A DNA stretch of 64,000 nt. Source: Auanema rhodensis. Taxonomy: Eukaryota > Animalia > Nematoda. Shown here piece after piece: positions 15,183 through 64,000 of the stretch. Position numbers and translations under genes: made by a program. The notes beneath the pieces are model-generated. The model saw only the letters and a program-made list of their open reading frames with translations, was not told the origin of the DNA and did not search any database. Each line of letters begins with the position of its first letter. Within the stretch, counting starts at the first letter, position 1. The DNA lies in the NCBI GenBank assembly GCA_964057225.1, contig OZ059899.1:11036001-11100000 (forward strand), in the 5' to 3' direction.

Positions 15183-15563
15183 TGTCACATCTGCAAGCAC
15201 ATGGTAAACATGTGCGCGCTATTCAAATAGCGGGAGCCTGAACAATCCCCGCCCACAACATGGGACACACATGGCACTCTTGCTTCTGGCCTAACCCAGA
15301 TAGGTTGTCTTATAGCCATGTGAGTCTCATCTCTATATCATCTATATATATACTCTATTTAATACTTTATCATATCTCTTTATATTCTTTCTTAATGTAA
15401 TTCTTATATTGTATTTTCTTGTTATCTGATAATGAATCCTTTTCTCTTTGAGTATTTGTCTTAATAAGGAAATCGGAGCGTTCGGGTCTGCCTACCTAAG
15501 GAACAAGGTAGAAGTACATATATCTTCCGACCATGAAAAGACGGGAAGAAACAATATGTAACG
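15183..15563 (+). repeat. 5' LTR (381 bp)
   Basis: TGTCACAT...ATGTAACG; direct repeat of 17499-17879. Confidence 0.95.
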
Positions 15564-15576
15564 TGGAGGTTCCACC
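15564..15576 (+). promoter_or_regulatory. Primer binding site, tRNA-Gln
   Basis: TGGAGGTTCCACC is complementary to GGTGGAACCT-CCA, the 3' end of metazoan tRNA-Gln. Confidence 0.8.
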
Positions 15577-17498
15577 TTGCTTACTCTACTGTTAATTTAT
15601 TGACAGCAAGTTTACGAGACTTTTGGACTTAATTACCCAACAGTGAGGAGTAACCGAGCCGTGCACCATGATTTCCCCAAAAATTATTTTGGCTACCACT
15701 TCTCCTCCGCTCAACGAAAACTGGGAGGTGTCTGAGACGTTTGGGGAAACTATCAGACAATAGTTTTGACGAGCGTTACCTTTTTGTTATGCACGCGCGT
15801 GCTATTTTGATTCATTACTTTATGATGTGAATGTCCAGTGTGGCAACAGAGCTCACTTTTTAGCTGAGTTGTTTGGAAGCTGGAGGCTGTTGGGATAATT
15901 TTATTTACGATTTTTTGATTTTGATTCACATCCAAGGGTTCATCAGGGTTCTACTCCTGTTAACTCTTTTCTTATTAGTTCAGAGATAATAAGAATATTT
16001 AAATTCCTACCCACCCAAGTCCACTCTACGTCTGCCAACGTTTCCTTTTTCCTATATTATTGACAGATTACTGAATTTGAATTCCTATATCAATCTTAAA
16101 TTACCTTCTAAATCTTTTGAAATTAAATTAAAAATTATCTTATTTAAGATTTATTTTGAAATTCTTTCTACAAATCTTAATAAACTTTATAAAATTGAAC
16201 TTAATATACGAGATGAGACATTTTTGTTTACTTTAAGCTTACTCACATTCAAATAGTTGGCCCACGCGTACCAGCTGTTCGGCATGTGTAGTCAATAACA
16301 GCTGTTAAAATTCAAAAGTTTTCAAACAGGCTTAAGGCACCATCTGTGATTCCTAATTTGTCTCTAAGCTGACATTAGTGATTATAATATTCAAATATCA
16401 CGACAGACGGTCAATGGTTGTTTACCATAAGCGCTAACATCTGGTGTCGTGACACATGGCTGGAGGCGGAGCTTGAAGCTTCAACGATCCTCCTTCATCA
16501 GACGCCATTGTCACAAACGTTTTTACTGGAGTCTAGTTGCTTCCAGTACGCGCTCTTATATTCATCTAACTGTATTCACCAGCCACCATGTCGGACTCGG
16601 ACATCAGCGAGGACAACAAAGATTAGGAACAAGGATCACCAGAGCCATACCTTTTGTATGTCACACAACAACAAAGAAGAATGAACAACGGTTAATGACT
16701 TAGTTATGATAAAAGTGAATTCTACACGAAACAAACTAACACCTTCATTCGAAGGGCCTTATTTAGTTACAGCAGTTCAAAGATCTTTCGTCGTGGTTCA
16801 AACAGATAAAGGAAAAAGCAGAAGAGTACACAAGGACTTCGTCAAACCTTACCAACGGACAACATCTATTCCGGTTATCACAATTTCTTGAAGGTAGTTT
16901 TTTTTTAACAAAATCAAATTGTTGAAATTTTTCTTATTTTATTTTGTGCCATTTCTAATTGTAACACTTCTTTGTTGTTGATTGATTTTCTCTGAGAAGT
17001 CTGCTATTGTTTTACAAGGTTTTGTTTTATTACTCCAACTCTCATTGAGTAGATTTTTTTTTCAACATTCTCTTGTGAATCATGCTATTTTTTATGCTTA
17101 ATCATTACTTGTATTCACCTTATGGACATTAGTCATACGGGTTAAACGAGTTTTCATTTTTTTGTACAAAACGAGCTCGACCTATTCTCAGGGTAACACC
17201 GTACCTGTACAACTCAAGAAAATGAACGACTATATCACAGTCGAATGGTTTAGAAGCAAAGCTCTCGTTTGCAAGCATTTCACTACTCAAGTGAATGAAA
17301 TAGAATCTACTCGATACTACATTTCGAATTCAACAAACTTGAAGAGACAATAGCTAAACTTTCAAATCGTATTGTATACATTTTTTTTTTTTATCCACTA
17401 CACCATGATTTTTTTTTTCCAACATCCAACTATCTTAAAAAGTGAATTAATTTATTTTGTTTTTGAACGAGGACGTTCAACTTTTTAAGGTGGGGGGA

Positions 17499-17879
17499 TG
17501 TCACATCTGCAAGCACATGGTAAACATGTGCGCGCTATTCAAATAGCGGGAGCCTGAACAATCCCCGCCCACAACATGGGACACACATGGCACTCTTGCT
17601 TCTGGCCTAACCCAGATAGGTTGTCTTATAGCCATGTGAGTCTCATCTCTATATCATCTATATATATACTCTATTTAATACTTTATCATATCTCTTTATA
17701 TTCTTTCTTAATGTAATTCTTATATTGTATTTTCTTGTTATCTGATAATGAATCCTTTTCTCTTTGAGTATTTGTCTTAATAAGGAAATCGGAGCGTTCG
17801 GGTCTGCCTACCTAAGGAACAAGGTAGAAGTACATATATCTTCCGACCATGAAAAGACGGGAAGAAACAATATGTAACG
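17499..17879 (+). repeat. 3' LTR (381 bp)
   Basis: Preceded by polypurine tract AAGGTGGGGGGA. Confidence 0.95.
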
Positions 17880-19644: not shown

Positions 19645-19976
19645 TGTGGCGTTATACCGCAAGTGTATAGTATGGTTGGAAGTAAAACACAAAGCGAATA
19701 TGTAGAAAAAGGTTTATTGATGAATTAACAAGACAAGCACGGAATAGAATCACTGACTGCGAACGTGGAAAAATGTAAGACTGTCCTCCGTTGTTGGGCG
19801 GTCTTCTGAAATAAACTGTTACTTATGCCACATGTTAACACATATGTTATGCATATGTGTTTTGATCTAGTTACAAAGGAAGGAGATAAAGAGAGAGAGA
19901 GAGAGAGAGAGAGAGGTATATATATATAGAGAGAGATAGAGATAACAAAAACAAAACCTACTCGCTTATCGCGACA
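19645..19976 (-). mobile_element. Solo LTR of a second LTR family (copy 1 of 5)
   Basis: TGT...ACA termini with imperfect inverted repeat (TGTGGCG/CGCGACA), 5-bp TSD TCCGA; TATA run then AATAAA on the minus strand; (GA)n tract. Confidence 0.85.
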
Positions 19977-25729: not shown

Positions 25730-25972
25730 TGTGGCGTTATACCGCAAGTGTATAGTATGGTTGGAAGTAAAACACAAAGCGAATATGTAGAAAAAGGTTT
25801 ATTGATGAATTAACAAGACAAGCACGGAATAGAATCACTGACTGCGAACGTGGAAAAATGTAAGACTGTCCTCCGTTGTTGGGCGGTCTTCTGAAATAAA
25901 CTGTTACTTATGCCACATGTTAACACATATGTTATGCATATGTGTTTTGATCTAGTTACAAAGGAAGGAGAT

Positions 25973-26024
<52 letters not shown>

Positions 26025-26085
26025 GTATATATATATAGAGAGAGATAGAGATAACAAAAACAAAACCTACTCGCTTATCGCGACA
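25730..26085 (-). mobile_element. Solo LTR, second family (copy 2 of 5, expanded GA tract)
   Basis: Same sequence, site and TCCGA TSD as 19645-19976. Confidence 0.85.
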
Positions 26086-28501: not shown

Positions 28502-28744
28502 TGTGGCGTTATACCGCAAGTGTATAGTATGGTTGGAAGTAAAACACAAAGCGAATATGTAGAAAAAGGTTTATTGATGAATTAACAAGACAAGCACGGA
28601 ATAGAATCACTGACTGCGAACGTGGAAAAATGTAAGACTGTCCTCCGTTGTTGGGCGGTCTTCTGAAATAAACTGTTACTTATGCCACATGTTAACACAT
28701 ATGTTATGCATATGTGTTTTGATCTAGTTACAAAGGAAGGAGAT

Positions 28745-28796
<52 letters not shown>

Positions 28797-28853
28797 ATAT
28801 ATATAGAGAGAGATAGAGATAACAAAAACAAAACCTACTCGCTTATCGCGACA
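28502..28853 (-). mobile_element. Solo LTR, second family (copy 3 of 5, expanded GA tract)
   Basis: Same sequence, site and TCCGA TSD. Confidence 0.85.
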
Positions 28854-30048: not shown

Positions 30049-30095
30049 TGCCGCCAGCAGGGGCGAACCTGCGACCTTGGGCTTATTAGACCCAC
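30049..30095 (-). pseudogene. 3' part of a tRNA-Ile gene split by the LTR element
   Basis: tRNA sequence stops at CCAC|TGTCAC; also has a 1-nt deletion in the T loop/B box (ggggcgaacc vs ggggtcgaacc). Confidence 0.9.
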
Positions 30096-30476
30096 TGTCA
30101 CATCTGCAAGCACATGGTAAACATGTGCGCGCTATTCAAATAGCGGGAGCCTGAACAAGCCCCGCCTACAACATGGGACACACATGGCACTCTTGCTTCT
30201 GGCCTAACCCAGATAGGTTGTCTTATAGTCATGTGAGTCTCATCTCTATATCATCTATATATATACTCTATTTAATACTTTATCATATCTCTTTATATTC
30301 TTTCTTAATGTAATTCTTATATTGTATTTTCTTGTTATCTGATAATGAATCCTTTTCTCTTTGAGTATTTGTCTTAATAAGGAAATCGGAGCGTTCGGGT
30401 CTGCCTACCTAAGGAACAAGGTAGAAGTACATATATCTTCCGACCATGAAAAGACGGGAAGAAACAATATGTAACG
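30096..30476 (+). repeat. 5' LTR (381 bp)
   Basis: Direct repeat of 39636-40016 with 7 mismatches. Confidence 0.95.
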
Positions 30477-30489
30477 TGGAGGTTCCACC
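30477..30489 (+). promoter_or_regulatory. Primer binding site, tRNA-Gln
   Basis: TGGAGGTTCCACC immediately after the LTR. Confidence 0.8.
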
Positions 30490-31500
30490 TTGCTTACTCT
30501 ACTGTTAATTTATTGACAGCAAGTTTACGAGACTTTTGGACTTAATTACCCAACAGTGAGGAGTAACCGAGCCGTGCACCATGATTTCCCCAAAAATTAT
30601 TTTGGCTACCACTTCTCCTCCGCTCAACGAAAACTGGGAGGTGTCTGAGACGTTTGGGGAAACTATCAGACAATAGTTTTGACGAGCGTTACCTTTTTTT
30701 TATGCACGCGCGTGCTATTTTGATTCATTACTTTATGATGTGAATGTCCAGTGTGGCAACAGAGCTCACTTTTTAGCTGAGTTGTTTGGAAGCTGGAGGC
30801 TGTTGGGATAATTTTATTTACGATTTTTTGATTTTGATTCACATCCAAGGGTTCATCAGGGTTCTACTCCTGTTAACTCTTTTCTTATTAGTTCAGAGAT
30901 AATAAGAATATTTAAATTCCTACCCACCCAAGTCCACTCTACGTCTGCCAACGTTTCCTTTTTCCTATATTATTGACAGATTACTGAATTTAAATTCCTA
31001 TATCAATCTTAAATTACCTTCTAAATCTTTTGAAATTAAATTAAAAATTATCTTAATTAAGATTTATTTTGAAATTCTTTCTACAAATCTTAATAAACTT
31101 TATAAAATTGAACTTAATATACGAGATGAGACATTTTTGTTTACTTTAAGCTTACTCACATTCAAATAGTTGGCTCACGCGTACCAGCTGTTCGGCATGT
31201 GTAGTCAATAACAGCTGTTAAAATTCAAAAGTTTTCAAACAGGCTTAAGGCACCATCTGTGATTCCTTATTTGTCTCTAAGCTGACATAAGTGATTATAA
31301 TATTCAAATATCACGACAGACGGTCAATGGTTGTTTACCATAAGCGCTAACATCTGGTGTCGTGACACATGGCTGGAGGCGGAGCTTGAAGCTTCAACGA
31401 TCCTCCTTCATCAGACGCCATTGTCACAAACGTTTTTACTGGAGTCTAGTTGCTTCCAGTACGCGCTCTTATATTCATCTAACTGTATTCACCAGCCACC

Positions 31501-32520
31501 CTGTCGGACTCGGACATCAGCGAGGAAAACAAAGATCAGGAACAAGGATCACCAGAGGTACGCCAAGTTTTTGAATTTAATTCTAAAAACTTAAATACTC
31601 CATCCACCTACCTCTCTCCTTTTGAATTTTTGAGAGAAGAAGGTGATTCCTCTTCTTCTTCTCATTCTTCTTCTCTAACAATTAGAACGAGAAGTAAAAG
31701 CAGAAAGGCCATCACTGAGGAAACACCTCGGGCACCTACTACAGTACGAAATAGATCACCAAGTCGGTGGGCCGCTGCTATAACTAAAGCTTTTGAAAGA
31801 AAAATGACTCCTACCTCTCCATCTCCTAATTCTAATGTTGCTCCACCCTCTAGAAATATGGCAACTATTTTAAATTGCCATCTCTGTCCCAGGTATGACG
31901 GCTCTCGTAGCTTTCGTTCTTTTGTTGAATCTTTAAATAGATTTTTTAATGTTATGAATCTAAGCTTACCTGAGAGACTATTAATTTTGCCTCTTCTTTT
32001 GGAATCAAATGAAACAGCTCTCTCCTTGTATAATAGTATTCCTAGTGGCATAAGAACTAATGGCCCATGGATTGTTTTGATGGATCAGCTCACTGAGCTT
32101 TTAGCGCCTAAAACAGATAAAAATTTCACCATAGCGCTTATTCATCGAGTACAACAAGGAGATAAATCTGTTCTTGATTTTAGTATGGAATTAGAGAGAA
32201 TGGCAAGCACCATAATGTCACCAATGGATCCCGAGCGGGAACCAATGTTGAAAACGGCATTTTTAAATGGTTTAAAAGAGGAACTGGGTATTGCGGTTTT
32301 AACTAAAAACCCCGCCACTTATGAACAAGCTAAGAAATTAGCTAGGTTTGAAGAAGGCGTTCGGAATAGCTTCATGAAAAGAAATGAAGACACCAGCACC
32401 TTGAAGGAGCTCATAAATGCTTTACAACATAAATTAAGCTTTAGTGAAGAAAGAGAAAGAAGTAGGAATAATAATAATAATAAAAATTATAAAAATAATA
32501 AAAATAATAAAAAAAAATAA
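31501..32520 (+). CDS. gag: Gag (capsid domain); continues after a +1 shift into the N/R-rich region 32520-32776
   Basis: Retrotransposon CA motifs PRYDGS..F..F, W..LMDQL, MHR-like QQGDKSVLDF; frame is open from 31501, where this copy has GCCACC-CTG and the sister copy GCCACC-ATG (16588). Confidence 0.85.
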   Translation: MSDSDISEENKDQEQGSPEVRQVFEFNSKNLNTPSTYLSPFEFLREEGDSSSSSHSSSLTIRTRSKSRKAITEETPRAPTTVRNRSPSRWAAAITKAFERKMTPTSPSPNSNVAPPSRNMATILNCHLCPRYDGSRSFRSFVESLNRFFNVMNLSLPERLLILPLLLESNETALSLYNSIPSGIRTNGPWIVLMDQLTELLAPKTDKNFTIALIHRVQQGDKSVLDFSMELERMASTIMSPMDPEREPMLKTAFLNGLKEELGIAVLTKNPATYEQAKKLARFEEGVRNSFMKRNEDTSTLKELINALQHKLSFSEERERSRNNNNNKNYKNNKNNKKK

Positions 32521-33445
32521 TAACTGGACTCAGCACAATAATGGCTCTAATGATTATGAGCGAGAGAGAGAGCGACCTTCTGCCGTACGTTATAAGAATA
32601 ATAACTCGCAGAACGGGAATATGAATAGGCGTCCTAACCCGGGAAACCGCCCATTTGCCAATGGCAGAAATGCCAATAGCTCGTCTTGGAACCCTAGGCC
32701 TAGTTCCCCAAGAAGACAAAGACCATCAGCCAATGGGAATGGTAACTCAAGGGTATACAGCGTAGCGACCCCATTCATGCCACCGGTCACGTTGTGCCTG
32801 ACTTTATTGGCACTCTCATGCCTTCCCTTTGGGTCGGCAAAATATCAGATTTGCGCTCAATCTGAAGGGGGTATATTAGTAACACCTCCTGTGGTCACAG
32901 GCTGCCATAAGGCAGAAATTGAAAAGGCTCACAGTGTTGAGGTAGAAATATATCTACCAAAGGCTGAGATAGAGTCATGGGAAGCATGGAAATGCTATGT
33001 GAAAAAGTATAAAAGCTGTGTGAGAGATTTCATGTTTTTGAGAGATCGTAACACCACATTCTCTCATATTGAAACAGTAGATAAGAAAGATTGTGTTCGA
33101 GCACATAGAAATCGTATGTGGAATGATAAAATCATGAATGCCCAACAGCATTCAGTTTTTGAAACACCATTAAACGAGCATAATCCAACTCGCTCTTGGT
33201 CCACTGAAGAATGTGTAGAAATTGAACAATTTGTATTGAAGCGAGGGATAATAACTAGATTGAAAGAAGATCACATTGTATCAGACTTATTTATAAATAC
33301 TGATAATTGTAAAGGAAATGAAGGGTTTTGTGCAACTGGTGAAGGTGCAGTTATCTGGCAACCACCTATCCCATCAGTTGTCTGTCACTATCAAAAACTT
33401 GGCCCCTTCTCCGCCATTACCTCAAAAACATCGCTCTTTCAGTGA
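32444..33445 (+). CDS. Gag C-terminal Asn/Arg-rich region + internal signal sequence + N-terminal part of envelope glycoprotein (frameshifted segment)
   Basis: NRRPNPGNRP basic low-complexity tract, hydrophobic TLCLTLLALSCLPFGSA, then a Cys-rich ectodomain with N-glycosylation sequon. Confidence 0.8.
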   Translation: MKKEKEVGIIIIIKIIKIIKIIKKNNNWTQHNNGSNDYERERERPSAVRYKNNNSQNGNMNRRPNPGNRPFANGRNANSSSWNPRPSSPRRQRPSANGNGNSRVYSVATPFMPPVTLCLTLLALSCLPFGSAKYQICAQSEGGILVTPPVVTGCHKAEIEKAHSVEVEIYLPKAEIESWEAWKCYVKKYKSCVRDFMFLRDRNTTFSHIETVDKKDCVRAHRNRMWNDKIMNAQQHSVFETPLNEHNPTRSWSTEECVEIEQFVLKRGIITRLKEDHIVSDLFINTDNCKGNEGFCATGEGAVIWQPPIPSVVCHYQKLGPFSAITSKTSLFQ

Positions 33446-35439
33446 TGATTATCTTTTTGTTAATGCGAAATCCCAACCATATGCGTTTCCATTTCTAAGA
33501 CCTACTTTCATTTTTGGATCTGCATCTATCACTAAGTTTTACGCAAAATATATGAGATATGCAGCTACATCATCTTATGAGAGTTTGCTCCAATTCGCGA
33601 TAGATAATCCACTGTTCATTGACACAATTGTTAGTTTAGGATTGACAAAAGATCACATAACTAACTGGGCAAAGTCTAATAATTTCAAAGATCCCAATCT
33701 TTTGATTTTACAATGTATGGGTATAGAGGAAATTAAACTGGCTACTAGACAGGTGATTAATAGCATGAAATTGGATGATCTTATCACTCAAGTAGCTCGT
33801 CGTATAGAAGTTCCTCGGTTAAAAAGATCGTTGATGAAATCTACAACATCCATAGAAGACTTCTTTCGAGGAATGGCTCACGCAGTAGTATATCAAGCCA
33901 CAATTCTTGATGGTACACAAACAGTTCCATCAATCGAACAGTTGGCCAGAGCCTTATATCCATCTATATTAGCACGCAGTGGAAATATGAATCAATCTGA
34001 AATTATTGCAACTGCTCAAGGCATGTTATTCATGATCCAACAACAATCGGGAAAAGAACAAATATCTCGTGACATGCAAGTCAGTCGACAACAAAAAGCT
34101 GATGCTACTGTTAGAAACAACCAAGAGCAAGATTTAGCAATTATATCCAAGCTGCCTGACTATCACAACCTTTATACAAAGAATAGTACAGCATATTATG
34201 GATTTCCTCCACAGTCCATCGAATACCCACAGGAAAATCCTAAATTCAATAAAACAGAAGTTTTAGAATTCATAAGTTGGGTTAAAACTCAAATCACAAC
34301 TGATAAAAATATGGTACAGCATACTACTGTAACCCCAATAACTGCCACCAAAACTACAATTCGTAGTTTAACAACTCCTACCCCTAATGCGTACGAGAGA
34401 GGTCGAGAGTTGTATGTAGCAGAAGTATATGACAATGTTCTCCACAAATCAGAGCATAAAACTAAAACGATAATAGATAATAAGTTGAATTATGGGTTTG
34501 AGAAAGCGCGTCTCTCCATAATTGACGAATTTCATCAACAGTTTCATACCATCTGTAAATCTCAAATGGAAACTGTAAAAAGCTGGCAAGCTATATTACG
34601 TATACATCCTACAATAGGAGTAAGAGCTATGCTTCAGCGGGATGATATCGTTGCCCGATTTGTTGGAAGAAATGTTTTAAAAATAACAACTTGTCAGGAA
34701 ATAGAACCACATTTCATTTATCGTAATCATTCTTACAATGATAAATGTTATGCAGAGACCCCTGTTTTAACACACGATAAACAATTATTCTTTGCTCCTA
34801 TCGATAGCTACGATTTGAGCACTGAAGGACATGAGATCAATTGTGAACACAAAGAGACAGAGATTTGGTATGAAAATGGAACATGGAGAGATTATAAAGG
34901 TGACACACATAAAGTAGATAGTATTCATTCAGAAAAACATGATCATTATGCTGAATTGAGTAAACTTCGATTCACAGGGCGGAATTTGTTTGAAAATTCG
35001 ACTGAAAAATCCTTAGCCCTATCTATTGGATTAACTTATGGTTATAGTTTATCTACTTCACCTCACCATGATCTTCTCCGCGTAATTTCTCGTTCACGTG
35101 ATTGGCCTCAAATTTCCTCTTTCATCTTGAAAGGAAGTAAACTTATAAGAGATGCCAGGAAAATTGTTTTCTCCAATTGGGATCTGTTCATTGACTTTTG
35201 TATAGGTTCAATTGAACGAACACTCATTACCATCGGTTGTATAACTCTGATATTATGTCTAATGATAGCATTATATTTCACTATAAAATGTTATCTCTCC
35301 CCTACTTCTATGTTAAAAATAAACCATATCATGTTGAGCCCAACAGCTCCACCACTTGAGGGAGATGAGATTCATGAAACAGTTAGTGATGAATTGATGC
35401 GGAGCTATTTTCCCACCATCATAACTTACATTCCTTTAG
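32777..35439 (+). CDS. env: Envelope glycoprotein, class III / herpesvirus gB-like (one frameshift near 33440)
   Basis: Signal-like peptide; RLKR furin site (33816-33827); Thr-rich tract; gB-like block IC..Q......ILRIHPTIGVRAMLQRDDIVARFVG..LKITTC...KCYAETPV; TM segment about 35220-35290; short tail with PTAP. Confidence 0.75.
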
Positions 35440-38400
35440 CCATACCTTTTGTATGTCACACAACAACAAAGAAAAATGGACACTTGTTACCGTTTGTTCA
35501 TATTGACATTGAAGGTAGAGGACTGTTAGCATTATGGGATTCTGGAGCTACTGTCTCATATATTCCGTTCTCCACATTGGCATATATTGGAAGACAATAT
35601 TTTACAAAATATTCTAAATCTGCATCCACTGCAAATGGATCAGAGTTTCGCTTTGTGGGAAAATGCAAGTTAGATGTGGGTATAGCAGGTTACCAAGTGG
35701 AACACGAATTTTTAATATCTGAAGACAATGACTGTCCAGGACAAATGTTACTTGGTACTGATTTTATGCGTACGTTGGAAGAAAGAGAGATATTTACTAC
35801 ATTAAAACTATGTAAAGGAAAGTTGATTGTTGGTAATATGGAAACACCCTTAGTAAAACCTGGTTGTTTTGCATATAAAACCACAACTAAAACAGTAAAT
35901 ATCATAAGTTTGTCCACAGTAACAGTTCCACCACATAGTACCTCCCACATATCTTTGCAAACAGGACCAGAATTAGATTTTGATCAATATGCTCTTTTAA
36001 AATCTAGCACAGGTCCTATCTCAATTCCAGATGCCGCCATAGGACCTTTTCCTATTACTATGGTAGTATCAAACAATTCTTCAAAGCCAATTAAAATTAA
36101 TAAAAATGACCACATTGGTTCAGGACTTATAGCATCTAAAGAAATTATGAACGATTATGTTCCACCTGAAGCTGATTGGGAAGATAAGTTACCAACTTTT
36201 CCTCAGCATCTTTTGGATGATTTGAACTTCAATTCTTGCACTCTGTCTCATAAAATGAAGAAAAATCTGATCACAATCATTAAGGAAAACCAAACGGCAT
36301 TTTTCAACCATGATCATAATATTGGTCTCTTTTGCGGACCAGTTGAACATGCCATTCCTATAAGATCTGATATGGATTTTCCAAAAAGTAGATCTTACAG
36401 AGTACCATTGGGTAAGCAAGAAGAAGTAGAACGGCAAGTGAAAGAAATGTTGTCGCAAGGTATAATCGAAAATTCGACGGCTACTTTCACTAGTCCGGTT
36501 GTTCTTGTGAAAAAGAAAGATAATTCTTTCCGGTTCGTTACTGACTTTAGAGCATTGAATAGTGTTACTAAGAAACAAACATACAGCATCCCACACATTC
36601 CTGATATCATAGACTTAGCGGCTGGAGCTCAGTTCTTTTCGAATTTTGATCTCATTTCTGGTTTCTTCCAAATACCGTTGAAACGCTCAGATAGATACTT
36701 AACTGCTTTTACCACTCCATCAGGTACCTATCAGTATTGCCGAATGCCTATGGGATTGTGTGGAGCGCCACACACTTTTCAATCCGCAGTACGATATTTG
36801 CAATCTCTTGTTAGATGCAAACTGTTTGTATATCTAGATGATTTGCTAATAATTTCGAACTCAGCTGAAGAACATTTAAGAGATATACAAGAAGTGCTGA
36901 AAAAGGTCACTGAACTAGGGTTAAAAATTAAGTTATCTAAATGTTGCTTTGCAGCCACTGAAGTAAAGTTTTTGGGTTTTGTAATAGGTAGAAATGGTGT
37001 TAAACCAGATCCTGCTAAGATAGAGGCTGTTTCCGAATTTCCAAATCCAAGTACAGTTACGGCTGTTAGATCCTTTCTAGGTATGACTAACTATTTTCGA
37101 CGGTTTATTCAAAATTATGCCGAAATAGCGGAGCCATTGTATAAGTTAACACATAAGGATACTCCTTTTGAGTGGAAATCGGAACATGCAGACGCATTTA
37201 AAACTTTAAAAACATTACTGTGTACTGCCCCTGTACTGAAACCTCCTAAAGCAGACCAACCTTTTGTTATAGAAAGTGATGGCAGTATGATCGCTGTGGG
37301 AGCAGTTTTATTGCAATCAGCAGAGAAAAATTCTCCATTACACCCGATTGCGTTCGCTAGTAGAAAGTTGACTCCAGCGGAACGGAAATATCCTCCTATT
37401 GAAGTTGAAGCACTCGGTTTAGTCTTTGCTCTTCAACAATTCCGTACCTATGTATTAGGAGTACCTACCACAGTTATCACAGATCACCGACCATTAACCA
37501 GTTTAATGTCGCGTAAAGATCTCATAGGTAGATTAGCCAAGTATCAACTAATGATACAAGATTTCAACATAAAGATTGAATATCGTCCTGGCAAATTAAA
37601 CAGTGTCTGTGATGCTCTCTCCAGGTATATAGGAAACGAAGCAAATGACAGTCGTCCTACTAAACCAAAGGACAAAGTAAAACCTGTTGATGCTTTTATT
37701 GCTCATATTACAACTATTTCTTCTATTGACCAACTAAATTGTGAAGAAATACGGAAAGTTCAAGCTGGAGTTCCCTGGATTCGCGAAGCACTTTCTCAAA
37801 TTAATAATGATAACTGTCCGGCTAATATATCAGACCGGTATGAAGAACGAGAAGGCATATTACATGCAAAACAAGCGAAAAATTATTTAAAACCATCTAT
37901 TATTTTGCCTCGAAACGACAAAATAACTGATGTTGTCATCAAATTTTTTCACGAAGATTCCAAAATTGGTGCACACCTAGGTATAAATAAAACTACTGAT
38001 GCGATTCGACGACGATTCTTTTGGACTAATATGGTTCCACAAATAACTGAATTTATTAATCGTTGTACAAAATGTGCAAGTAGGAAATCTAACCCACACC
38101 AATCGTATATTCAACCTATGGGAAGATTTGTTATACCCGAAAAGCCATTTGATCGTATTCATGTAGATATACTAGGTCCTTTACCTCGCACTAATGATGG
38201 ACATCGATACATCTTGAGTATTCAAGATGCTTTTAGTAAATGGGGAACAACTTGCCCATTAATAACACAAACGGCTACTGAAATCACAAAAGCGTTTGTA
38301 ATTAGATTTGTTTTCATATATGGACCACCAATGAGTATGATAACCGATAATGGTAGTAGCTTTTTGTCATCTGAATTTCAAGCTATGTGTAAACAATTTG

Positions 38401-39017
38401 GAATTAAACACACTACTACGCTACCATATCATAAAAATGCTAATGGACAAGTTGAGAGACTTCATAGAACTTTGGAAGAAGCTCTCTCTTCATTCGTGAA
38501 TGAACAACAAACTAACTGGGATATACACCTACCCAAAGTTATGTTTGCGATCAATACGTTACCAAACTCATCAACATCTATTAGTCCATATGTTGTATTA
38601 TTTGGTCGGGATGCAAGACTTCCTATTGACCATCAATTGCCTGGGAATAATCTTCAAACTGAAGAACCAGCCAATCCTACAGAAGATTTTGTCAATAGAT
38701 CGCTAATACAAAATGAAAGCACATCTAATATAGTAAAAGATAGAATTGAAACATGCACAAAGAAGAATGAACAACGGTACAATACACGAAATAGAACACA
38801 AAATAAAGAAATTCAGGTTAATGACTTAGTTATGATAAAAGTGAATTCTACTCGAAACAAACTAACACCTTCATTCGAAGGGCCTTATTTAGTTACAGCA
38901 GTTCAAAGATCTTTCGTCGTGGTTCAAACAGATAAAGGAAAAAGCAGAAGAGTACACAAGGACTTCGTCAAACCTTACCAACGAACAACATCTATTCCGG
39001 TTATCACAATTTCTTGA
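33318..39017 (+). CDS. pol: Env(C-terminal)-Pol polyprotein: gB-like ectodomain, TM, aspartic protease, RT, RNase H, integrase
   Basis: LWDSGA (35538), RFVTDFRALN, FDLISGFFQIP, MPMGL, YLDD (36831), ESDGS/EALG/TDHRPL RNase H, H-H-C-C zinc finger, D-D-E (HVDILGP, TDNGS, GQVER), FEGPY. Confidence 0.97.
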   Translation: MKGFVQLVKVQLSGNHLSHQLSVTIKNLAPSPPLPQKHRSFSDDYLFVNAKSQPYAFPFLRPTFIFGSASITKFYAKYMRYAATSSYESLLQFAIDNPLFIDTIVSLGLTKDHITNWAKSNNFKDPNLLILQCMGIEEIKLATRQVINSMKLDDLITQVARRIEVPRLKRSLMKSTTSIEDFFRGMAHAVVYQATILDGTQTVPSIEQLARALYPSILARSGNMNQSEIIATAQGMLFMIQQQSGKEQISRDMQVSRQQKADATVRNNQEQDLAIISKLPDYHNLYTKNSTAYYGFPPQSIEYPQENPKFNKTEVLEFISWVKTQITTDKNMVQHTTVTPITATKTTIRSLTTPTPNAYERGRELYVAEVYDNVLHKSEHKTKTIIDNKLNYGFEKARLSIIDEFHQQFHTICKSQMETVKSWQAILRIHPTIGVRAMLQRDDIVARFVGRNVLKITTCQEIEPHFIYRNHSYNDKCYAETPVLTHDKQLFFAPIDSYDLSTEGHEINCEHKETEIWYENGTWRDYKGDTHKVDSIHSEKHDHYAELSKLRFTGRNLFENSTEKSLALSIGLTYGYSLSTSPHHDLLRVISRSRDWPQISSFILKGSKLIRDARKIVFSNWDLFIDFCIGSIERTLITIGCITLILCLMIALYFTIKCYLSPTSMLKINHIMLSPTAPPLEGDEIHETVSDELMRSYFPTIITYIPLAIPFVCHTTTKKNGHLLPFVHIDIEGRGLLALWDSGATVSYIPFSTLAYIGRQYFTKYSKSASTANGSEFRFVGKCKLDVGIAGYQVEHEFLISEDNDCPGQMLLGTDFMRTLEEREIFTTLKLCKGKLIVGNMETPLVKPGCFAYKTTTKTVNIISLSTVTVPPHSTSHISLQTGPELDFDQYALLKSSTGPISIPDAAIGPFPITMVVSNNSSKPIKINKNDHIGSGLIASKEIMNDYVPPEADWEDKLPTFPQHLLDDLNFNSCTLSHKMKKNLITIIKENQTAFFNHDHNIGLFCGPVEHAIPIRSDMDFPKSRSYRVPLGKQEEVERQVKEMLSQGIIENSTATFTSPVVLVKKKDNSFRFVTDFRALNSVTKKQTYSIPHIPDIIDLAAGAQFFSNFDLISGFFQIPLKRSDRYLTAFTTPSGTYQYCRMPMGLCGAPHTFQSAVRYLQSLVRCKLFVYLDDLLIISNSAEEHLRDIQEVLKKVTELGLKIKLSKCCFAATEVKFLGFVIGRNGVKPDPAKIEAVSEFPNPSTVTAVRSFLGMTNYFRRFIQNYAEIAEPLYKLTHKDTPFEWKSEHADAFKTLKTLLCTAPVLKPPKADQPFVIESDGSMIAVGAVLLQSAEKNSPLHPIAFASRKLTPAERKYPPIEVEALGLVFALQQFRTYVLGVPTTVITDHRPLTSLMSRKDLIGRLAKYQLMIQDFNIKIEYRPGKLNSVCDALSRYIGNEANDSRPTKPKDKVKPVDAFIAHITTISSIDQLNCEEIRKVQAGVPWIREALSQINNDNCPANISDRYEEREGILHAKQAKNYLKPSIILPRNDKITDVVIKFFHEDSKIGAHLGINKTTDAIRRRFFWTNMVPQITEFINRCTKCASRKSNPHQSYIQPMGRFVIPEKPFDRIHVDILGPLPRTNDGHRYILSIQDAFSKWGTTCPLITQTATEITKAFVIRFVFIYGPPMSMITDNGSSFLSSEFQAMCKQFGIKHTTTLPYHKNANGQVERLHRTLEEALSSFVNEQQTNWDIHLPKVMFAINTLPNSSTSISPYVVLFGRDARLPIDHQLPGNNLQTEEPANPTEDFVNRSLIQNESTSNIVKDRIETCTKKNEQRYNTRNRTQNKEIQVNDLVMIKVNSTRNKLTPSFEGPYLVTAVQRSFVVVQTDKGKSRRVHKDFVKPYQRTTSIPVITIS

Positions 39018-39623
39018 AGGTAGTTTTTTTTTTAACAAAATCAAATTGTTGAAATTTTTTTTATTATTTTATTTTGTGCCATTTCTGATTGTACCACTTC
39101 TTTGTTGTTGATTGATTTTCTCTGAGAAGTCTGCTATTGTTTTACAAAAGTTTGTTTTATTACTCCAACTCTCATTGAGTAGATTTTTTTTTCAACATTC
39201 TCTTGTGAATTTTGCTATTTTTTTATGCTTAATCATTACTTGTATTCACCTTATGGACATTAGTCATACGGGTTAAACGAGTTTTCATTTTTTTGTACAG
39301 AACGGGCTCGACCTATTCTCAGGGTAACACCGTACCTGTACAACTCGAGAAAATGAACGACTATATCACAGTCGAATGGTTTAGAAGCAAAGCTCTCGTT
39401 TGCAAGCATTTCACTACTCAAGTGAATGGAATAGAATCTATTCGATACTACATTTTGAATTCAACAAACTTGAAGAGACAATAGCTAAACTTTCAAATCG
39501 TATTGTATACATTATTTTTTATCGACTACACCATGATTTTTTTTGTTATCTTTTTCCAACATCCAACTATCTTAAAAAGTGAATTAATTTATTTTGTTTT
39601 TGAACGAGGACGTTCAACTTTTT

Positions 39624-39635
39624 AAGGTGGGGGGA
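39624..39635 (+). promoter_or_regulatory. Polypurine tract
   Basis: AAGGTGGGGGGA directly before the 3' LTR. Confidence 0.85.
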
Positions 39636-40016
39636 TGTCACATCTGCAAGCACATGGTAAACATGTGCGCGCTATTCAAATAGCGGGAGCCTGAACAAGC
39701 CCCGCCTACAACATGGGACACACATGGCACTCTTGCTTCTGGCCTAACCCAGATAGGTTGTCTTATAGTCATGTGAGTCTCATCTCTATATCATCTATAT
39801 ATATACTCTATTTAATACTTTATTAGATCTCTTTATAATCTTTCTTAATGTAATTCTTATATTGTATTTTCTTGTTATCTGATAATGAATCCTTTTCTCT
39901 TTAAGTATTTGTCTTAATAAGGAAATCGGGGCGTTCGGGTCTGCCTACCTAAGGAACAAGGTAGAAGTACATATATCTTCCGACTATGAAAAGACGGGAA
40001 GAAACCATATGTAACG
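39636..40016 (+). repeat. 3' LTR (381 bp)
   Basis: TGTCACAT...ATGTAACG followed by TSD CCAC. Confidence 0.95.
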
Positions 40017-40046
40017 CCACGCTCTAACCGACTGAGCTATGGCGGC
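40017..40046 (-). pseudogene. 5' part of the split tRNA-Ile gene
   Basis: tRNA sequence resumes after the 3' LTR. Confidence 0.9.
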
Positions 40047-54080: not shown

Positions 54081-54410
54081 TGTGGCGTTATACCGCAAGT
54101 GTATAGTATGGTTGGAAGTAAAACACAAAGCGAATATGTAGAAAAAGGTTTATTGATGAATTAACAAGACAAGCACGGAATAGAATCACTGACTGCGAAC
54201 GTGGAAAAATGTAAGACTGTCCTCCGTTGTTGGGCGGTCTTCTGAAATAAACTGTTACTTATGCCACATGTTAACACATATGTTATGCATATGTGTTTTG
54301 ATCTAGTTACAAAGGAAGGAGATAAAGAGAGAGAGAGAGAGAGAGAGAGGTATATATATATAGAGAGAGATAGAGATAACAAAAACAAAACCTACTCGCT
54401 TATCGCGACA
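54081..54410 (-). mobile_element. Solo LTR, second family (copy 4 of 5)
   Basis: Same sequence, site and TCCGA TSD. Confidence 0.85.
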
Positions 54411-55082: not shown

Positions 55083-55412
55083 TGTGGCGTTATACCGCAA
55101 GTGTATAGTATGGTTGGAAGTAAAACACAAAGCGAATATGTAGAAAAAGGTTTATTGATGAATTAACAAGACAAGCACGGAATAGAATCACTGACTGCGA
55201 ACGTGGAAAAATGTAAGACTGTCCTCCGTTGTTGGGCGGTCTTCTGAAATAAACTGTTACTTATGCCACATGTTAACACATATGTTATGCATATGTGTTT
55301 TGATCTAGTTACAAAGGAAGGAGATAAAGAGAGAGAGAGAGAGAGAGAGAGGTATATATATATAGAGAGAGATAGAGATAACAAAAACAAAACCTACTCG
55401 CTTATCGCGACA
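55083..55412 (-). mobile_element. Solo LTR, second family (copy 5 of 5)
   Basis: Part of a 1002-bp tandem duplication with copy 4. Confidence 0.85.
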
Positions 55413-57690: not shown

Positions 57691-60600
57691 ATGGCTGCTA
57701 ATAGGTTGTGTCTTTTTGATTATTTGTTTGTAAACTTTTTCTTTTTTTAGTTATAAACGTTTATGTGAAGAGCTAGGATTTGATTATGAAGAAATCAATC
57801 AGCTCAGGTAATTTAACAATATTTTGAATCTTTATATATATTTTGTTTTTTAGTAAACGTATAAAGTTTACCGAAGCTGGTGGGATCGAGCTCTGTGAGC
57901 CCACATCACCCACTTTTAACAGTGGGCCCTCATCATCAAGGGTTATTGAAGTAATAACCTTGGATGACAGTGATGAGTAAGCGATATTAAAAATTATAAC
58001 AATTAGTTTTTTCTTTTTAAGCGAATGGGATCCTGCTACCCCATCAACCAGTGGAGGACAAGTCGGATATGGAGCGGCATTCAACGATGTCTGTAAAATA
58101 GAGGTGCGATCTTTTATTTACATATCATTTCATAATATATCTTTTGAAACATGAAATTTTCTCTTGCTCCAATTGCATATTTTGAAAACATTTTGAAATT
58201 TATTTCTCTTTTTCAATTGCTCTCTCTCTCATCTTTACATTTCATCTCAATCTATATCTTTTTTCAAACAAATTGCAAGTATTTTGAAATTTACATATTC
58301 ATTCTTTTGAACAACATTCATTTTAAAATCTTTACATTTCATCTCACTATCTATCTATCTTTCCTCATCTATCTTTCTTTCAACCAATTTTGAATTCTTA
58401 CAAATTATAAATATTTCAAACATTTTGAACTAGTAAAATAATAAAACACAATCTTGACCTTTTCATTTATTTTTTAACATTAACAAATGTTTATAAAAGT
58501 TTTTTCAAAGTTGAAAAAAAAAAAAAAACTTTATATTTAAAAATCAAATGCCATTTATTTTTAAACATTAATAAAAATAATTTAAAGAAAAGTAAATTTA
58601 TAAAAAGTTATAAACAAAAATTATTTATATTTAAACTAAAAGCGTATAACCATTATAAAAAGTGTGTATTATAGTGGTCACACCGACGCATAAAACGAAC
58701 TGGTCGGTTCACCAACGTGGTCGTTAGATCGCTCACGTTCCCACATTTGGAAGCCATTGATGAGCCAATGCATGTTGTCATGCCGCGGCTATTTAATGAG
58801 TTTCTTGATCGGTGCCTTGCTGAAAGTGGTGTGCCAGATAAACAAAAAGCACTATTTTGTTTATCAATAGAGCACCCATCCTTTGAAAAGGGATCCATAT
58901 TTATGGATTTCCGTAGAAGGGAGCATTTGGATGGCGTTGCCATCATGAATGCCATCAGCAAGGTACAGCAATCAAAGCGAGAGGCTGTAATTAGCCAGGC
59001 AATGAACATTGAAATGTATGTGTTTGATGAGAGACCAGTGCAGCCAAGCCTGATGCCTGGTGAAGGTAGAGTTGGTTTCTATTTTGATGCCGAACTCAAG
59101 ATACCTGGCACAATTGAGAACACTGATACACATTGCCTGGCTAGAGCAGCAGTTGTGGGAATGTGGAGAGCCGATGAAGAGGCAGCAGAAGATGTTGTTG
59201 AGAAGCGGAGGATTCAAAATCTTCGTCGCAACTACATCTTGTTGCCAAATCAACCACATCATATCAATTTATTGAATAGGTGTGGTATTTCTGTACATTT
59301 ACCAAATTATAATTTGAACCATTTAAATATTATTGCAAGTTGTAATACAGACTATAAGTTTGTAGTATACGCTAGGCCACCTGGACAGCGTATGTACGCT
59401 ATTCAGCGTATCTTTAATGAAACGGCTAGCAAAGTGGTAACACTAGGCTACCGAAATAATCATTATGACTGTATTACAACTTGTAGTAGATCACAGATTT
59501 TTGATGGTATTATATGCCAACACTGTAAATTATCTTACAAAACAGTGTTGCATAGATGTAAAGCCAAGTGTAAGAAATGCCACACCTTAAAATGTAATTC
59601 GATGGAAAATGTGGTTGAGAGTAGCATAAGATGTGATAGTTGTAGAGTTTTGTTCAAAACTCGTCAATGCTTTGACAGGCATATTAGAAAAACATGTCGA
59701 ATGTTTAAGGTAATTTAAAAAATATATATAAAATTTTACAAGACTAAATTCAGACATGTGAAAACTGTGATCATTATCACAGAGTACGTGCTGATAGACC
59801 GCACAATTGCAATGAGAAATTTTGCAAAAAGTGTGGGCAAACAAAGCCTGAAGATCATTCTTGTTGTTGGGTACCACCTAACGACAAGAAGAAGGATCAG
59901 TTAAAAAAGAGGCAAGAAAAATACAAGGTTTGTATTTTACATCTTTACAAGTGTAATGCTTACTTGTTTAAGATTATATTCTATGACTTTGAAACGGTTG
60001 TGTTAAAAAACGGTACAAATGTTCATGAATATGCAGATGAACAATGGCCCAATATGGTTGTGTATAATAAATTTTGTGAAAGTTGTATAGATGCCAACTC
60101 ATGTGAAAAATGCACAACCAAGGAGGGCCATTTTGGGTACCAACAAGGTGATAGTGAATGGTCTGTAACAGATCGTTTCCTTGATTGGTTACTCAACTCT
60201 GTTGAGAATGATAATGCAATTTTGATTGCGCATAATGGTTCACGCTTTGACATACATTTCTTGGTGTCTAGGCTGATAAACCGTGGTATATATCCTGATC
60301 CAATTTTAAATGGGACCAAGATTATAAGCATGGTTGTCAAGCCTTTAAGAGGTCAAAAATTTAACCATTTATATTTTAAAGATAGTTATTTATTAGTGCC
60401 TTTACCCTTATCAGCGTTACCCAAGGCATTTGGTGTACCTGATATGAGTAAAGGACAGTTTCCTTACCTCTATAATCACCCAATAAATTATGGCAAAGTG
60501 TTGCCATCTTTACCACCAAAACAGTACTATTGTACTGCTAGAATGAAAGCAGAAGACCTAGCTTCATTCGATATTTGGTATGAAGAGCGTAATCAAAGAG

Positions 60601-62900: not shown

Positions 62901-63035
62901 TATATTTGAATTTATAAATTTTTATCTTGTATATATTTGTATTTATAAAATTTTATCATTGTACATGTATATTTTTAAAAATAGTTGTATTAATAAATTT
63001 TATTCTTAAATCTTTTAAAGAATTTATTACATACA

Positions 63036-64000
63036 TTACAAACTGGTATCAATATATGGAGCACGATTGTTGTCAATTGAAAGAATAGAGTCATACTCTG
63101 CATAAACAATTGCATATAAGCCCTCTTGCGGCGTTTGTTGACCAAATTCCAATTTCAAGGCTACATTACCTTGTCGTATAACATCAAATAACTCTGACGA
63201 ATGCACAGTAGGAGAAATATCAAATACAAAAAATGTGAAACCAGCTTTATACATTGCTGGTGTAATACCATTGGATGAATCTGTACGACCAAGTCCCAAA
63301 CCTTCGAGCATGTCAATATATGCTGTGGCATAGGAAGATCGCCATTCTAAATTATAAGGACGGGTAGGTATTACCCTATTGTTGAGCGTCAAGTATATAT
63401 TTTTCAAATCAAACGGTTTAAAGTTGAATGGCGAATGTTTAAAAGTACCATTATAAGCGTGTGCGCCAACAAGACCTACTACGACACGTTTTGGTGTATG
63501 AGACGTGAATAATATATTATTAGGTGAATCCAAGCGGCCTCCTTCTATGAAATAAGAGCGCATTTTCACTGATGTCATGGGGTAGTGTATTCGATCCTTT
63601 GCGAGTTTATCTTCTATAGCCATAGCTAATCCAGCGTTTAGATCAAACTCTTGAATGAGCAAATGTACATCGCTGATATCTACTTTCAAATTTGGAAACT
63701 CCTCCTTTAATGTAGTATCCTTGTTTTCATTATTCCAGCCTAGAGTGTCAATTAAAAAGTTATCACGGTTTGGATATGCAGTTAGCTCCATTTTTGAATA
63801 GTTTACAAACAGTCGCTCTTGATTAAATAGGTCGATACTGACGGGAGCAGCCATCTCACACAATATGCCATTTTTTACAAGCGTTTGACGCGTTCTAAAT
63901 CCAGCACTGGATGCATTATCTATATATCTATCAGCATAATAGCCTGATATGGCAAGTTTGCTCTCTTTAACATCGTTGCTATACATTAAAATATTCTCGA
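63036..64000 (-). CDS. Polinton major capsid protein (double jelly-roll), 5'-truncated by the window edge
   Basis: PKRVVVGLV..AYNG..HSPFNFKPFDL.NIYLTLNNRVIP and GFTFFVFDISP motifs typical of Polinton MCP; frame is open to the window end. Confidence 0.85.
   Translation of the reverse strand, partial: ENILMYSNDVKESKLAISGYYADRYIDNASSAGFRTRQTLVKNGILCEMAAPVSIDLFNQERLFVNYSKMELTAYPNRDNFLIDTLGWNNENKDTTLKEEFPNLKVDISDVHLLIQEFDLNAGLAMAIEDKLAKDRIHYPMTSVKMRSYFIEGGRLDSPNNILFTSHTPKRVVVGLVGAHAYNGTFKHSPFNFKPFDLKNIYLTLNNRVIPTRPYNLEWRSSYATAYIDMLEGLGLGRTDSSNGITPAMYKAGFTFFVFDISPTVHSSELFDVIRQGNVALKLEFGQQTPQEGLYAIVYAEYDSILSIDNNRAPYIDTSL

What the first reader, a model, noticed from the sequence alone, without database searches (positions are those of the whole stretch)
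31501..39017. Ty3/gypsy element with a herpes gB-like envelope placed BETWEEN gag and pol
Seen: after Gag and an N/R-rich tract come a hydrophobic signal-like segment (about 32789-32838), roughly 800 aa of Cys-containing glycoprotein with an RLKR furin site and several NxS/T sequons, a TM helix (about 35220-35290), and then, in frame with no stop, PR-RT-RH-IN. Established: env genes of retroviruses, errantiviruses and nematode BEL/Pao elements (including the gB-like env of Ascaris Tas) normally lie 3' of pol. The block C..Q....ILRIHPT...AML.RDD..ARFVG....ITTC...CYAETPV matches the pattern of class III gB/chuvirus-type fusogens. Inference: an enveloped endogenous virus with a Gag(cytosol)-Env(lumen)-Pol(cytosol) polyprotein processed by signal peptidase, furin and PR. 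I cannot check whether this family has already been described.
Basis: partly seen in the sequence, partly recalled or inferred. Interest (0 to 1): 0.92.

Follow-up and report, generated by a model that had tools for sequence, protein, structure and literature searches.

The report
Nematode retrotransposon with internal envelope gene
This is a broken copy of a jumping gene, likely from a roundworm, that carries a gene for a predicted herpesvirus-gB-like membrane-fusion protein between its capsid and enzyme genes; the layout is real but has already been reported in nematodes, bryozoans and flatworms.

Summary
The layout is real but published. A 9.9-kb Ty3/gypsy provirus (LTRs 30096-30476 and 39636-40016, 4-bp target duplication, tRNA-Gln-type primer site) splits a tRNA-Ile gene in a tandem array. 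The order is gag, signal peptide, envelope, transmembrane helix, PR-RT-RH-IN. Both envelope pieces, folded separately, match herpesvirus gB best. 17 of 170 relatives hold all domains in one chain, 70 have env before pol, and 1 (BEL/Pao) has it after. The nearest named relatives are from rhabditid nematodes. Chary & Hayashi (eLife, PMC13524379) report GAG-ENV-POL elements in nematodes, bryozoans and flatworms and cite Sacco 2022; this scan also found the layout on two other genomes.

Corrections: this copy is defective. It has two frame breaks, and the second lacks about 70 codons that hold the family's usual furin loop, so the cited RLKR is probably not that site.

Additions: a protease-site-like motif is enriched beside the signal peptide and transmembrane helix in relatives. 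A 2.7-kb sister copy with identical LTRs has two GT..AG deletions, likely a retro-copy of spliced RNA. Env-skipping splicing as a regulated programme is poorly supported.

Verdict: new member of a known kind; low interest.

The parts
30049..30095 (-). 3' part of the tRNA-Ile(AAT) gene split by the insertion
   Evidence: matches intact array tRNAs; insertion lies at about tRNA positions 27-30
30092..30095 (+). left copy of the 4-bp target-site duplication (right copy 40017-40020)
30096..30476 (+). 5' LTR, 381 bp, ends TG...CG
   Evidence: 374 of 381 identical to the 3' LTR
30477..30488 (+). primer-binding site, tRNA-Gln type
   Evidence: its reverse complement equals the 12-mer listed as Gln_UUG_CUG for C. 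latens errantivirus_4 and C. tropicalis errantivirus_1
31483..32520 (+). gag ORF (Ser-rich N-terminus, CA-like domain at about 31890-32400); ends in an A-run at the first frame break
31558..35439 (+). GT..AG-bounded 3882-nt stretch missing from the short sister copy and from contigs of runs X12 and X13
32460..32776 (+). N/R/G-rich basic tract, likely nucleocapsid equivalent (no CCHC knuckle); spans the first frame break
   Evidence: similar tracts in relatives
32786..32839 (+). internal signal-peptide-like segment
   Evidence: hydropathy; 37 of 42 Gag+Env relatives have one here
32840..33427 (+). envelope N-terminal piece, predicted class III domain I and part of II; hydrophobic hairpin tip at 33029-33040 is a likely fusion loop
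   Evidence: AF2 pLDDT 87.3; HSV gB Foldseek E 1.3e-6; VIA Z 11.1, rmsd 5.3, 167 aligned
33428..33482 (+). second break: frame change plus loss of about 70 codons found in relatives (rest of domain II and the usual furin loop)
33483..34466 (+). lineage-variable helical and Thr-rich insert in the envelope; holds RLKR at 33816
   Evidence: mostly pLDDT under 60
34467..35216 (+). envelope C-terminal piece, predicted gB domain III long helix, domain IV and V
   Evidence: PF24664 E 7.7e-8; Foldseek KSHV gB E 4.1e-4, PRV gB domain IV E 4.6e-4; phmmer KSHV gB E 0.039
35217..35291 (+). transmembrane helix
   Evidence: 67 of 67 Env+PR relatives have one here
35292..35498 (+). cytosolic tail/linker with a likely protease-site motif (35319-35330) and a hydrophobic motif conserved in close relatives
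35499..35771 (+). aspartic protease (DSG at 35538)
36507..37565 (+). reverse transcriptase and RNase H
   Evidence: E 4.4e-35 and 6.6e-32
37923..39017 (+). integrase (H2C2, core, C-terminus) to the stop; no chromodomain hit
39624..39635 (+). polypurine tract
39636..40016 (+). 3' LTR
40017..40046 (-). 5' part of the split tRNA-Ile gene
15183..17879 (+). short non-autonomous sister copy: identical LTRs (381 of 381), own 4-bp duplication, three internal deletions, two bounded by GT..AG

Best explanation
This is a defective proviral copy of a Ty3/gypsy LTR retrotransposon, likely from a rhabditid nematode, whose relatives encode Gag, a predicted gB-like class III fusion protein and Pol in one chain that is likely threaded through the ER membrane. 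Shown: gene order, LTRs, target duplication, primer site, single-chain relatives, and two breaks in this copy. Predicted: the gB-like fold, an internal signal peptide and a stop-transfer TM helix. Inferred: Gag is made in the cytosol; the signal sequence sends Env into the lumen and is cut by signal peptidase; the TM helix returns Pol to the cytosol; furin cuts the loop between domains II and III in many relatives; and the element's own protease likely frees Gag from the signal anchor and Pol from the Env tail at [VI]N-x-hydrophobic sites. This would give about 1:1:1 Gag:Env:Pol, pre-tethered to one membrane for budding. This copy is dead for Gag-Env-Pol. The short sister copy likely arose by reverse transcription of opportunistically spliced RNA and was mobilised in trans.
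For: Order and domains. Of 170 relatives examined, 17 are GAG-ENV-PR-RT-IN in one chain, 70 have env before a pol domain, 42 have gag before env, and 1 has RT before env, which is BEL/Pao. A signal-like helix is present in 37 of 42 and a TM in 67 of 67. The N-piece's top 11 VIA hits are all class III fusogens (gB Z 11.1-8.4, Chandipura G 8.1, rabies G, thogotovirus GP, GP64), the next is Z 3.4. Every Foldseek row listed for either piece is a herpesvirus gB. The RT-RH tree puts the window sister to an Auanema element (0.95) in a 0.999 clade of Caenorhabditis, Heterorhabditis and Diploscapter elements. The primer site matches published Caenorhabditis entries. The motif [VI]N-x-[VILM] lies within 30 aa before the signal helix in 18 of 42 and within 35 aa after the TM in 26 of 67, against 32 of 1316 and 32 of 1118 ectodomain windows. 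Its rate is 0.8-1.3 per 100 aa at the CA/NC, NC/SP and tail junctions, against 0.09-0.14 in domain cores. Random deletions are GT..AG-compatible in about 0.4-0.7% of cases, while 2 of 3 deletions in the short copy are.
Against: Relatives are predicted proteins, and eukaryotic gene models can bridge stops with invented introns, so 'one chain' was not checked on their DNA. The domain profiles included segments of the window and of some of the relatives scored. The C-piece model is weak overall (pLDDT 60.8, pTM 0.38), and in VIA gB (Z 6.2) is tied with unrelated coiled coils. Signal and TM calls rest on hydropathy, not SignalP or DeepTMHMM. The cleavage motif was picked by eye from some of the same relatives, is absent at the window's own NC/SP and RH/IN junctions, and its reading as a protease site is inference. 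Only 38 of 78 relatives have a furin motif. No data here show particles, fusion or infection.
Confidence: 0.8

Rival explanations
1. Env lies in a regulated intron: splicing to the acceptor just upstream of the protease would give an env-less Gag-Pol message for intracellular retrotransposition, and unspliced RNA would give the enveloped form.
For: A GT..AG join ends 20 codons before the protease in the short copy and in contigs of runs X12 and X13 (RNA status is a guess, one study). A GT just before the signal peptide (32742) has the same phase as that acceptor. C. elegans Cer1 uses splicing for its CERV protein (PMC10309623, abstract and passages).
Against: The donor actually used (31558) is phase 0 in gag and the acceptor is phase 1 in pol, so the observed join is out of frame. 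The contigs with this join also carry the 8-bp microhomology deletion (X13 directly, X12 by its loose end), so they look like products of the short derivative. No 32742-type join was listed. The acceptor matches TTTTCAG at only 4 of 7 places (the consensus is recalled, its last six letters appear). The aligned codons could hold an AG in only 5 of 15 close relatives (read by eye). Three of the 11 GTs in that stretch besides 32742 have the same phase.
Confidence: 0.12
2. Gag and Env-Pol are separate translation units in this family, joined by programmed frameshifting at the A-run or started from the ATG at 32777.
For: The gag frame stops in an A-run at 32520, and an ATG lies just before the signal segment.
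Against: The next frame is not the -1 frame that retroviral slippage usually reaches (the -1 rule is established knowledge). 42 relatives run gag into env in one chain, and a Met before the signal helix is not general.
Confidence: 0.07
3. The polyprotein is made as described, but the fusogen serves membrane anchoring or local soma-to-germline or cell-to-cell transfer within one animal, not infection between hosts. This can hold together with the best explanation.
For: The pol tree follows host groups here and in PMC13524379, which argues for mostly vertical descent and says the entry mechanism is unknown.
Against: Fusion-loop-like tips and cysteines are kept across divergent relatives, but that fits either use.
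Confidence: 0.4
4. The envelope is a nested insertion, chimera or assembly artefact inside an ordinary gag-pol element.
For: The copy has frame breaks and sits in a tandem array, which is hard to assemble.
Against: There are no inner LTRs or repeats, env runs in frame into pol, and 70 of 170 relatives share the order. Eleven DNA-type runs from three studies hold half or more of the stretch's words (one may be the source sample).
Confidence: 0.01

Closest known systems
Nematode GAG-ENV-POL HSV/gB-type Ty3/gypsy 'errantiviruses' (Chary & Hayashi, eLife 2026, PMC13524379; seen: abstract, section 14 whole, first parts of sections 5, 6 and 9, passages, Nematoda rows of supplement 1, some rows of supplement 6)
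   Same: Gene order; gB-type ENV flanked by signal peptide and TM; furin site not always kept; tRNA-Gln primer 12-mer identical to the C. latens_4 and C. tropicalis_1 entries. ENV-POL hits are tabulated for Auanema and Heterorhabditis genomes.
   Different: This copy is broken and would not meet the paper's intact criterion. It has a roughly 340-aa insert. The main text has no occurrence of 'splic', 'polyprotein', 'single ORF', 'fused' or 'frameshift', so processing and spliced derivatives are not treated there; figures and most supplements were not seen.
Non-canonical nematode endogenous retroviruses (Sacco et al. 2022, J Gen Virol, doi 10.1099/jgv.0.001739; text not held; title and citation seen; the rest is recalled)
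   Same: ENV and POL in flipped order in nematode metaviruses (as cited). Recalled: one continuous gag-env-pro-pol ORF, and env likened to mononegavirus glycoproteins, which fits the PF24664 match.
   Different: Could not compare sequences or check whether processing sites, splicing or short derivatives are discussed.
gB-bearing BEL/Pao elements (Ascaris Tas, recalled; mosquito BEL elements cited) and hookworm Atlas virus (search listing only)
   Same: Envelope-bearing LTR elements; a related gB-type env occurs in P0262.
   Different: BEL/Pao backbone and env after pol; the Atlas env is phlebovirus-like.
C. elegans Cer1 (PMC10309623; abstract, section 6 and passages seen)
   Same: Nematode LTR element with gag and pol in one frame, whose RNA keeps usable splice sites.
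   Different: No gB-type env between gag and pol is described in what I read; no CERV-like product was shown here.

Membership tests
Ty3/gypsy (Metaviridae) | pol order PR-RT-RH-IN | tested here: met
Ty3/gypsy (Metaviridae) | LTRs, primer site, polypurine tract, short target duplication | tested here: met
   LTR ends are TG...CG, not the usual TG...CA
Ty3/gypsy (Metaviridae) | RT affinity to gypsy-type elements, Ty3-type capsid | tested here: met
   the Pfam gag hits are below their cut-offs; GyDB profiles not available
Nematode GAG-ENV-POL gB-type elements (Chary & Hayashi; Sacco) | env between gag and pol | tested here: met
Nematode GAG-ENV-POL gB-type elements (Chary & Hayashi; Sacco) | HSV/gB-type ectodomain between signal peptide and TM | tested here: met
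Nematode GAG-ENV-POL gB-type elements (Chary & Hayashi; Sacco) | pol groups with nematode env-bearing elements | tested here: met
   clade of rhabditid elements, support 0.999; 12 of its 14 other members have env detected in the chain
Nematode GAG-ENV-POL gB-type elements (Chary & Hayashi; Sacco) | placement against the papers' own named elements | tested here: inconclusive
   their sequences were not fetched; only host names and the primer-site 12-mer could be matched
Nematode GAG-ENV-POL gB-type elements (Chary & Hayashi; Sacco) | cysteine-bridge class (C1a/d, C2a/c) | not tested
   defined in figures that are not held; part of domain II is missing in this copy
Catalogue of intact copies in PMC13524379 (a curation rule, not a family trait) | uninterrupted ORFs without large truncation | tested here: not met
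Class III viral fusogens | domain I/II with hairpin fusion loops; long domain III helix; beta domain IV | tested here: met
   (two pieces folded separately)
Class III viral fusogens | trimer and membrane-fusion activity | not testable with these tools
   no assay; trimer not modelled
BEL/Pao (Belpaoviridae) env elements | Pao peptidase/DUF1759 domains and env 3' of pol | tested here: not met

The most novel reading that the evidence does not exclude
The element keeps its envelope inside a spliceable intron and switches by splicing between an enveloped Gag-Env-Pol polyprotein and an env-less product (Gag-Pol, or a small accessory protein from a 3' exon at 39323-39484), and the short sister copy is a fossil of that splicing. 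The slot between signal peptide and TM would be a swappable cassette, since a sister clade in Strongyloides papillosus fills it with a non-gB coiled-coil protein.
Probability: 0.12. Interest if true: 0.62.

Novelty: new member of a known kind. Interest (0 to 1): 0.22.

Why it matters
As a find it is one more, broken, member of a published group, so it changes little. The residual value is mechanistic. A Gag-signal-Env-TM-Pol chain solves envelope expression without a spliced env message, in the manner of alphavirus or flavivirus polyproteins (recalled), and the motif enrichment gives testable cleavage sites that the main text of the eLife paper does not discuss. The short copy is a neat record of intron loss through retrotransposition and implies a recently active relative in the same host.

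Tried and rejected
No whole genome is held, so copy number, intact copies and preference for tRNA arrays could not be tested. The two insertions lie at different places in the repeat unit (inside the tRNA; about 130 bp past its 3' end), so Ty3-like precise targeting is not supported. A word-index search with the envelope region found nothing, whereas the full HMMER scan gave 160 hits. No RNA holder is listed on record. The four guessed-RNA runs cover pol in pieces and hardly cover env; this lack of cover is not used as evidence. Whether the two breaks are shared by other individuals or are assembly errors was not determined. A metagenome scan for relatives' DNA gave only 2 distant loci, 33-34% identical, so splice-site conservation could not be tested on DNA. 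The ESM Atlas gave no answer. VIA on the 593-aa piece was swamped by coiled coils, so the insert has no fold assignment. Rfam found only tRNAs. Small ORFs in the leader and the 3' region have no Pfam hit. Literature: 8 answered searches. Only PMC13524379 held the phrase gag-env-pol. Searches listed nothing on spliced derivatives of such elements, but they were narrow and Sacco 2022 is not held, so absence from print is not established. One search listed no usable source for a gypsy protease consensus (listing only).
Full report
1. What is there. The finding lies inside a complete LTR element at 30096-40016. The 381-bp LTRs are 374 of 381 identical. There is a 4-bp target duplication, a primer site directly after the 5' LTR and a polypurine tract before the 3' LTR. 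The element splits one tRNA-Ile(AAT) gene of a tandem array with 66 intact copies in this window. Three overlapping ORFs follow: 31483-32520, 32438-33445 and 33297-39017. Pfam finds a weak Gag domain in the first, and PR, RT, RNase H and integrase in the third, preceded by a gB-ectodomain match. Scanned alone, the envelope C-piece passes the cut-off of PF24664, a viral fusion glycoprotein family. Hydropathy shows a signal-like segment at 32786-32830 and a TM helix at 35217-35291.

2. The envelope. I folded the two natural ORF pieces separately, each with an alignment of relatives (26 and 46 sequences, subsets of the hits chosen for length). The N-piece (196 aa) gave pLDDT 87.3. Its Foldseek hits are herpesvirus gB (best E 1.3e-6, TM 0.47). 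In a Foldseek-independent search of 48,161 chains the top 11 are all class III fusogens (HSV gB Z 11.1, rmsd 5.3, 167 aligned; then HCMV and MHV68 gB, vesiculovirus and rabies G, thogotovirus GP, GP64), and the next hit is Z 3.4. A hydrophobic hairpin tip at 33029-33040 is a likely fusion loop. The C-piece (593 aa) is confident only over about residues 320-490. There it matches gB domains III-IV (E 4e-4), but the VIA search was uninformative. Between the blocks is an insert of about 340 aa; relatives range from 14 to 543 aa.

3. This copy is broken. One break is in an A-run at the end of gag. The other, near 33430-33480, also lacks about 70 codons: a profile of the segment recovered 9 of 9 held-out relatives but nothing in six frames here. 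In relatives the furin-type motif mostly lies in or just after that segment (38 of 78 have one), so RLKR at 33816 is probably not the family's cleavage site. Whether the breaks are biological or assembly errors is open.

4. Relatives. RT-RH is 55-68% identical to proteins annotated from Auanema, Heterorhabditis, Caenorhabditis and Diploscapter. The tree of 72 sequences (of 140 with a long enough RT-RH match: all env-bearing ones, a sample of the rest) puts the window in their clade with support 0.999, so the host is likely a rhabditid nematode. Of 170 proteins examined (the 150 listed envelope hits of 160, plus 20 chosen RT hits), 17 hold Gag, Env, PR, RT and IN in that order in one chain, 70 have env before a pol domain, and 1 has it after; that one is BEL/Pao. 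A nested insertion is excluded. Caveat: these are predicted proteins.

5. How it likely works. 37 of 42 Gag+Env chains have a signal-like helix before Env, and 67 of 67 Env+PR chains have a TM (chains with under 80 aa between Env block and PR were skipped). That gives the topology cytosol / lumen / cytosol. A [VI]N-x-hydrophobic motif is about tenfold enriched at the CA/NC boundary, before the signal helix and in the tail after the TM, compared with domain cores. I read it as the element's protease site, which would free Gag from the signal anchor and Pol from the Env tail. The motif was chosen by eye from part of the same set and no source for the consensus was read, so this is inference. The window has it at CA/NC, in the tail and after PR, but not before the signal helix or at RH/IN.

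6. The short sister copy. A 2.7-kb copy at 15183-17879 has identical LTRs and its own target duplication. It lacks three stretches: 3882 nt bounded by GT..AG, 3.3 kb at an 8-bp microhomology, and 40 nt bounded by GT..AG. Random deletions fit GT..AG in 0.4-0.7% of cases, so splicing followed by reverse transcription is likely. Contigs from two guessed-RNA runs of one study show the first join together with the microhomology deletion but keep the 40-nt stretch. I tested whether this reflects a programme that skips env. The observed join is out of frame, the acceptor is weak, and its codons could hold an AG in only 5 of 15 close relatives. Opportunistic splicing is more likely; Cer1 shows that nematode LTR RNAs keep usable splice sites (PMC10309623).

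7. What is known. Chary & Hayashi (PMC13524379) state that elements of Nematoda, Bryozoa and Platyhelminthes carry HSV/gB-type ENV arranged GAG-ENV-POL, and credit Sacco et al. 2022 for the nematode case. Supplement 1 lists 36 nematode elements, two with the same primer 12-mer as here. Sacco 2022 is not held; that it describes one continuous gag-env-pro-pol ORF is my recollection. Figures and most supplements were not seen and may bear on clade assignment and processing. Two earlier notes of this scan reached the same verdict on other genomes; they are not independent support.

8. Verdict. A new, defective member of a known kind; interest 0.22. The boldest reading not excluded is splice-regulated envelope skipping with a swappable passenger slot (probability 0.12, interest 0.62 if true).

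Noticed in passing
window 642-56014: Tandem array of 66 intact tRNA-Ile(AAT) genes on the minus strand, mostly 667-bp units with some 411-bp units.
   Followed up: partly
window 19646-19976, 25731-26085, 28503-28853, 54082-54410, 55084-55412: Five near-identical 330-355-bp inserts of a different sequence, TG...CA ended with a 5-bp duplication, at the same place in the array unit: likely one solo LTR of another family amplified with the array.
   Followed up: partly
window 58675-64000: ORF pieces matching protein-primed DNA polymerase B (PF03175, E 2.5e-22 and 3e-16) and a convergent 320-aa ORF with no Pfam hit: likely a Maverick/Polinton-type element (the label is my inference).
   Followed up: partly
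proteins P0030, P0034, P0035, P0038 (Strongyloides papillosus): Sister clade in the RT tree (0.96) with a signal-like helix after Gag and about 550 aa of coiled-coil-rich protein before the protease. It does not match the gB-type profiles (hhalign probability 0.5% and 1.2%). Possibly a different passenger in the same slot. Supplement 6 of the eLife paper shows no ENV-POL counts for S. ratti and S. stercoralis.
   Followed up: partly
window 39323-39484: A 53-codon frame after pol follows a strong acceptor-like site (6 of 7 match, as for only 9 of 537 AG sites in the element), in phase with the donor at 31558 and open in both copies; a possible accessory exon. No read joint seen, no Pfam hit, and the copies differ at 4 residues.
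   Followed up: partly
window 38777-38816: This 40-nt GT..AG stretch is missing in the short copy but present in X12/X13 contigs that carry the other two deletions, which suggests stepwise intron loss over successive rounds of retrotransposition.
   Followed up: partly
window 30096-30476 and 39636-40016: All four LTR copies end in CG, not CA. The full copy's 5' LTR is closer to the short copy's LTRs (378 of 381) than to its own 3' LTR (374 of 381), hinting at recombination or conversion.
   Followed up: no
proteins P0135, P0143, P0147, P0171: Relatives with two or three tandem protease domains after the envelope.
   Followed up: no
window 33483-34466 and relatives: The spacing between the two conserved envelope blocks varies from 14 to 543 aa across 85 relatives; a candidate receptor-binding or shielding insert.
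   Followed up: partly
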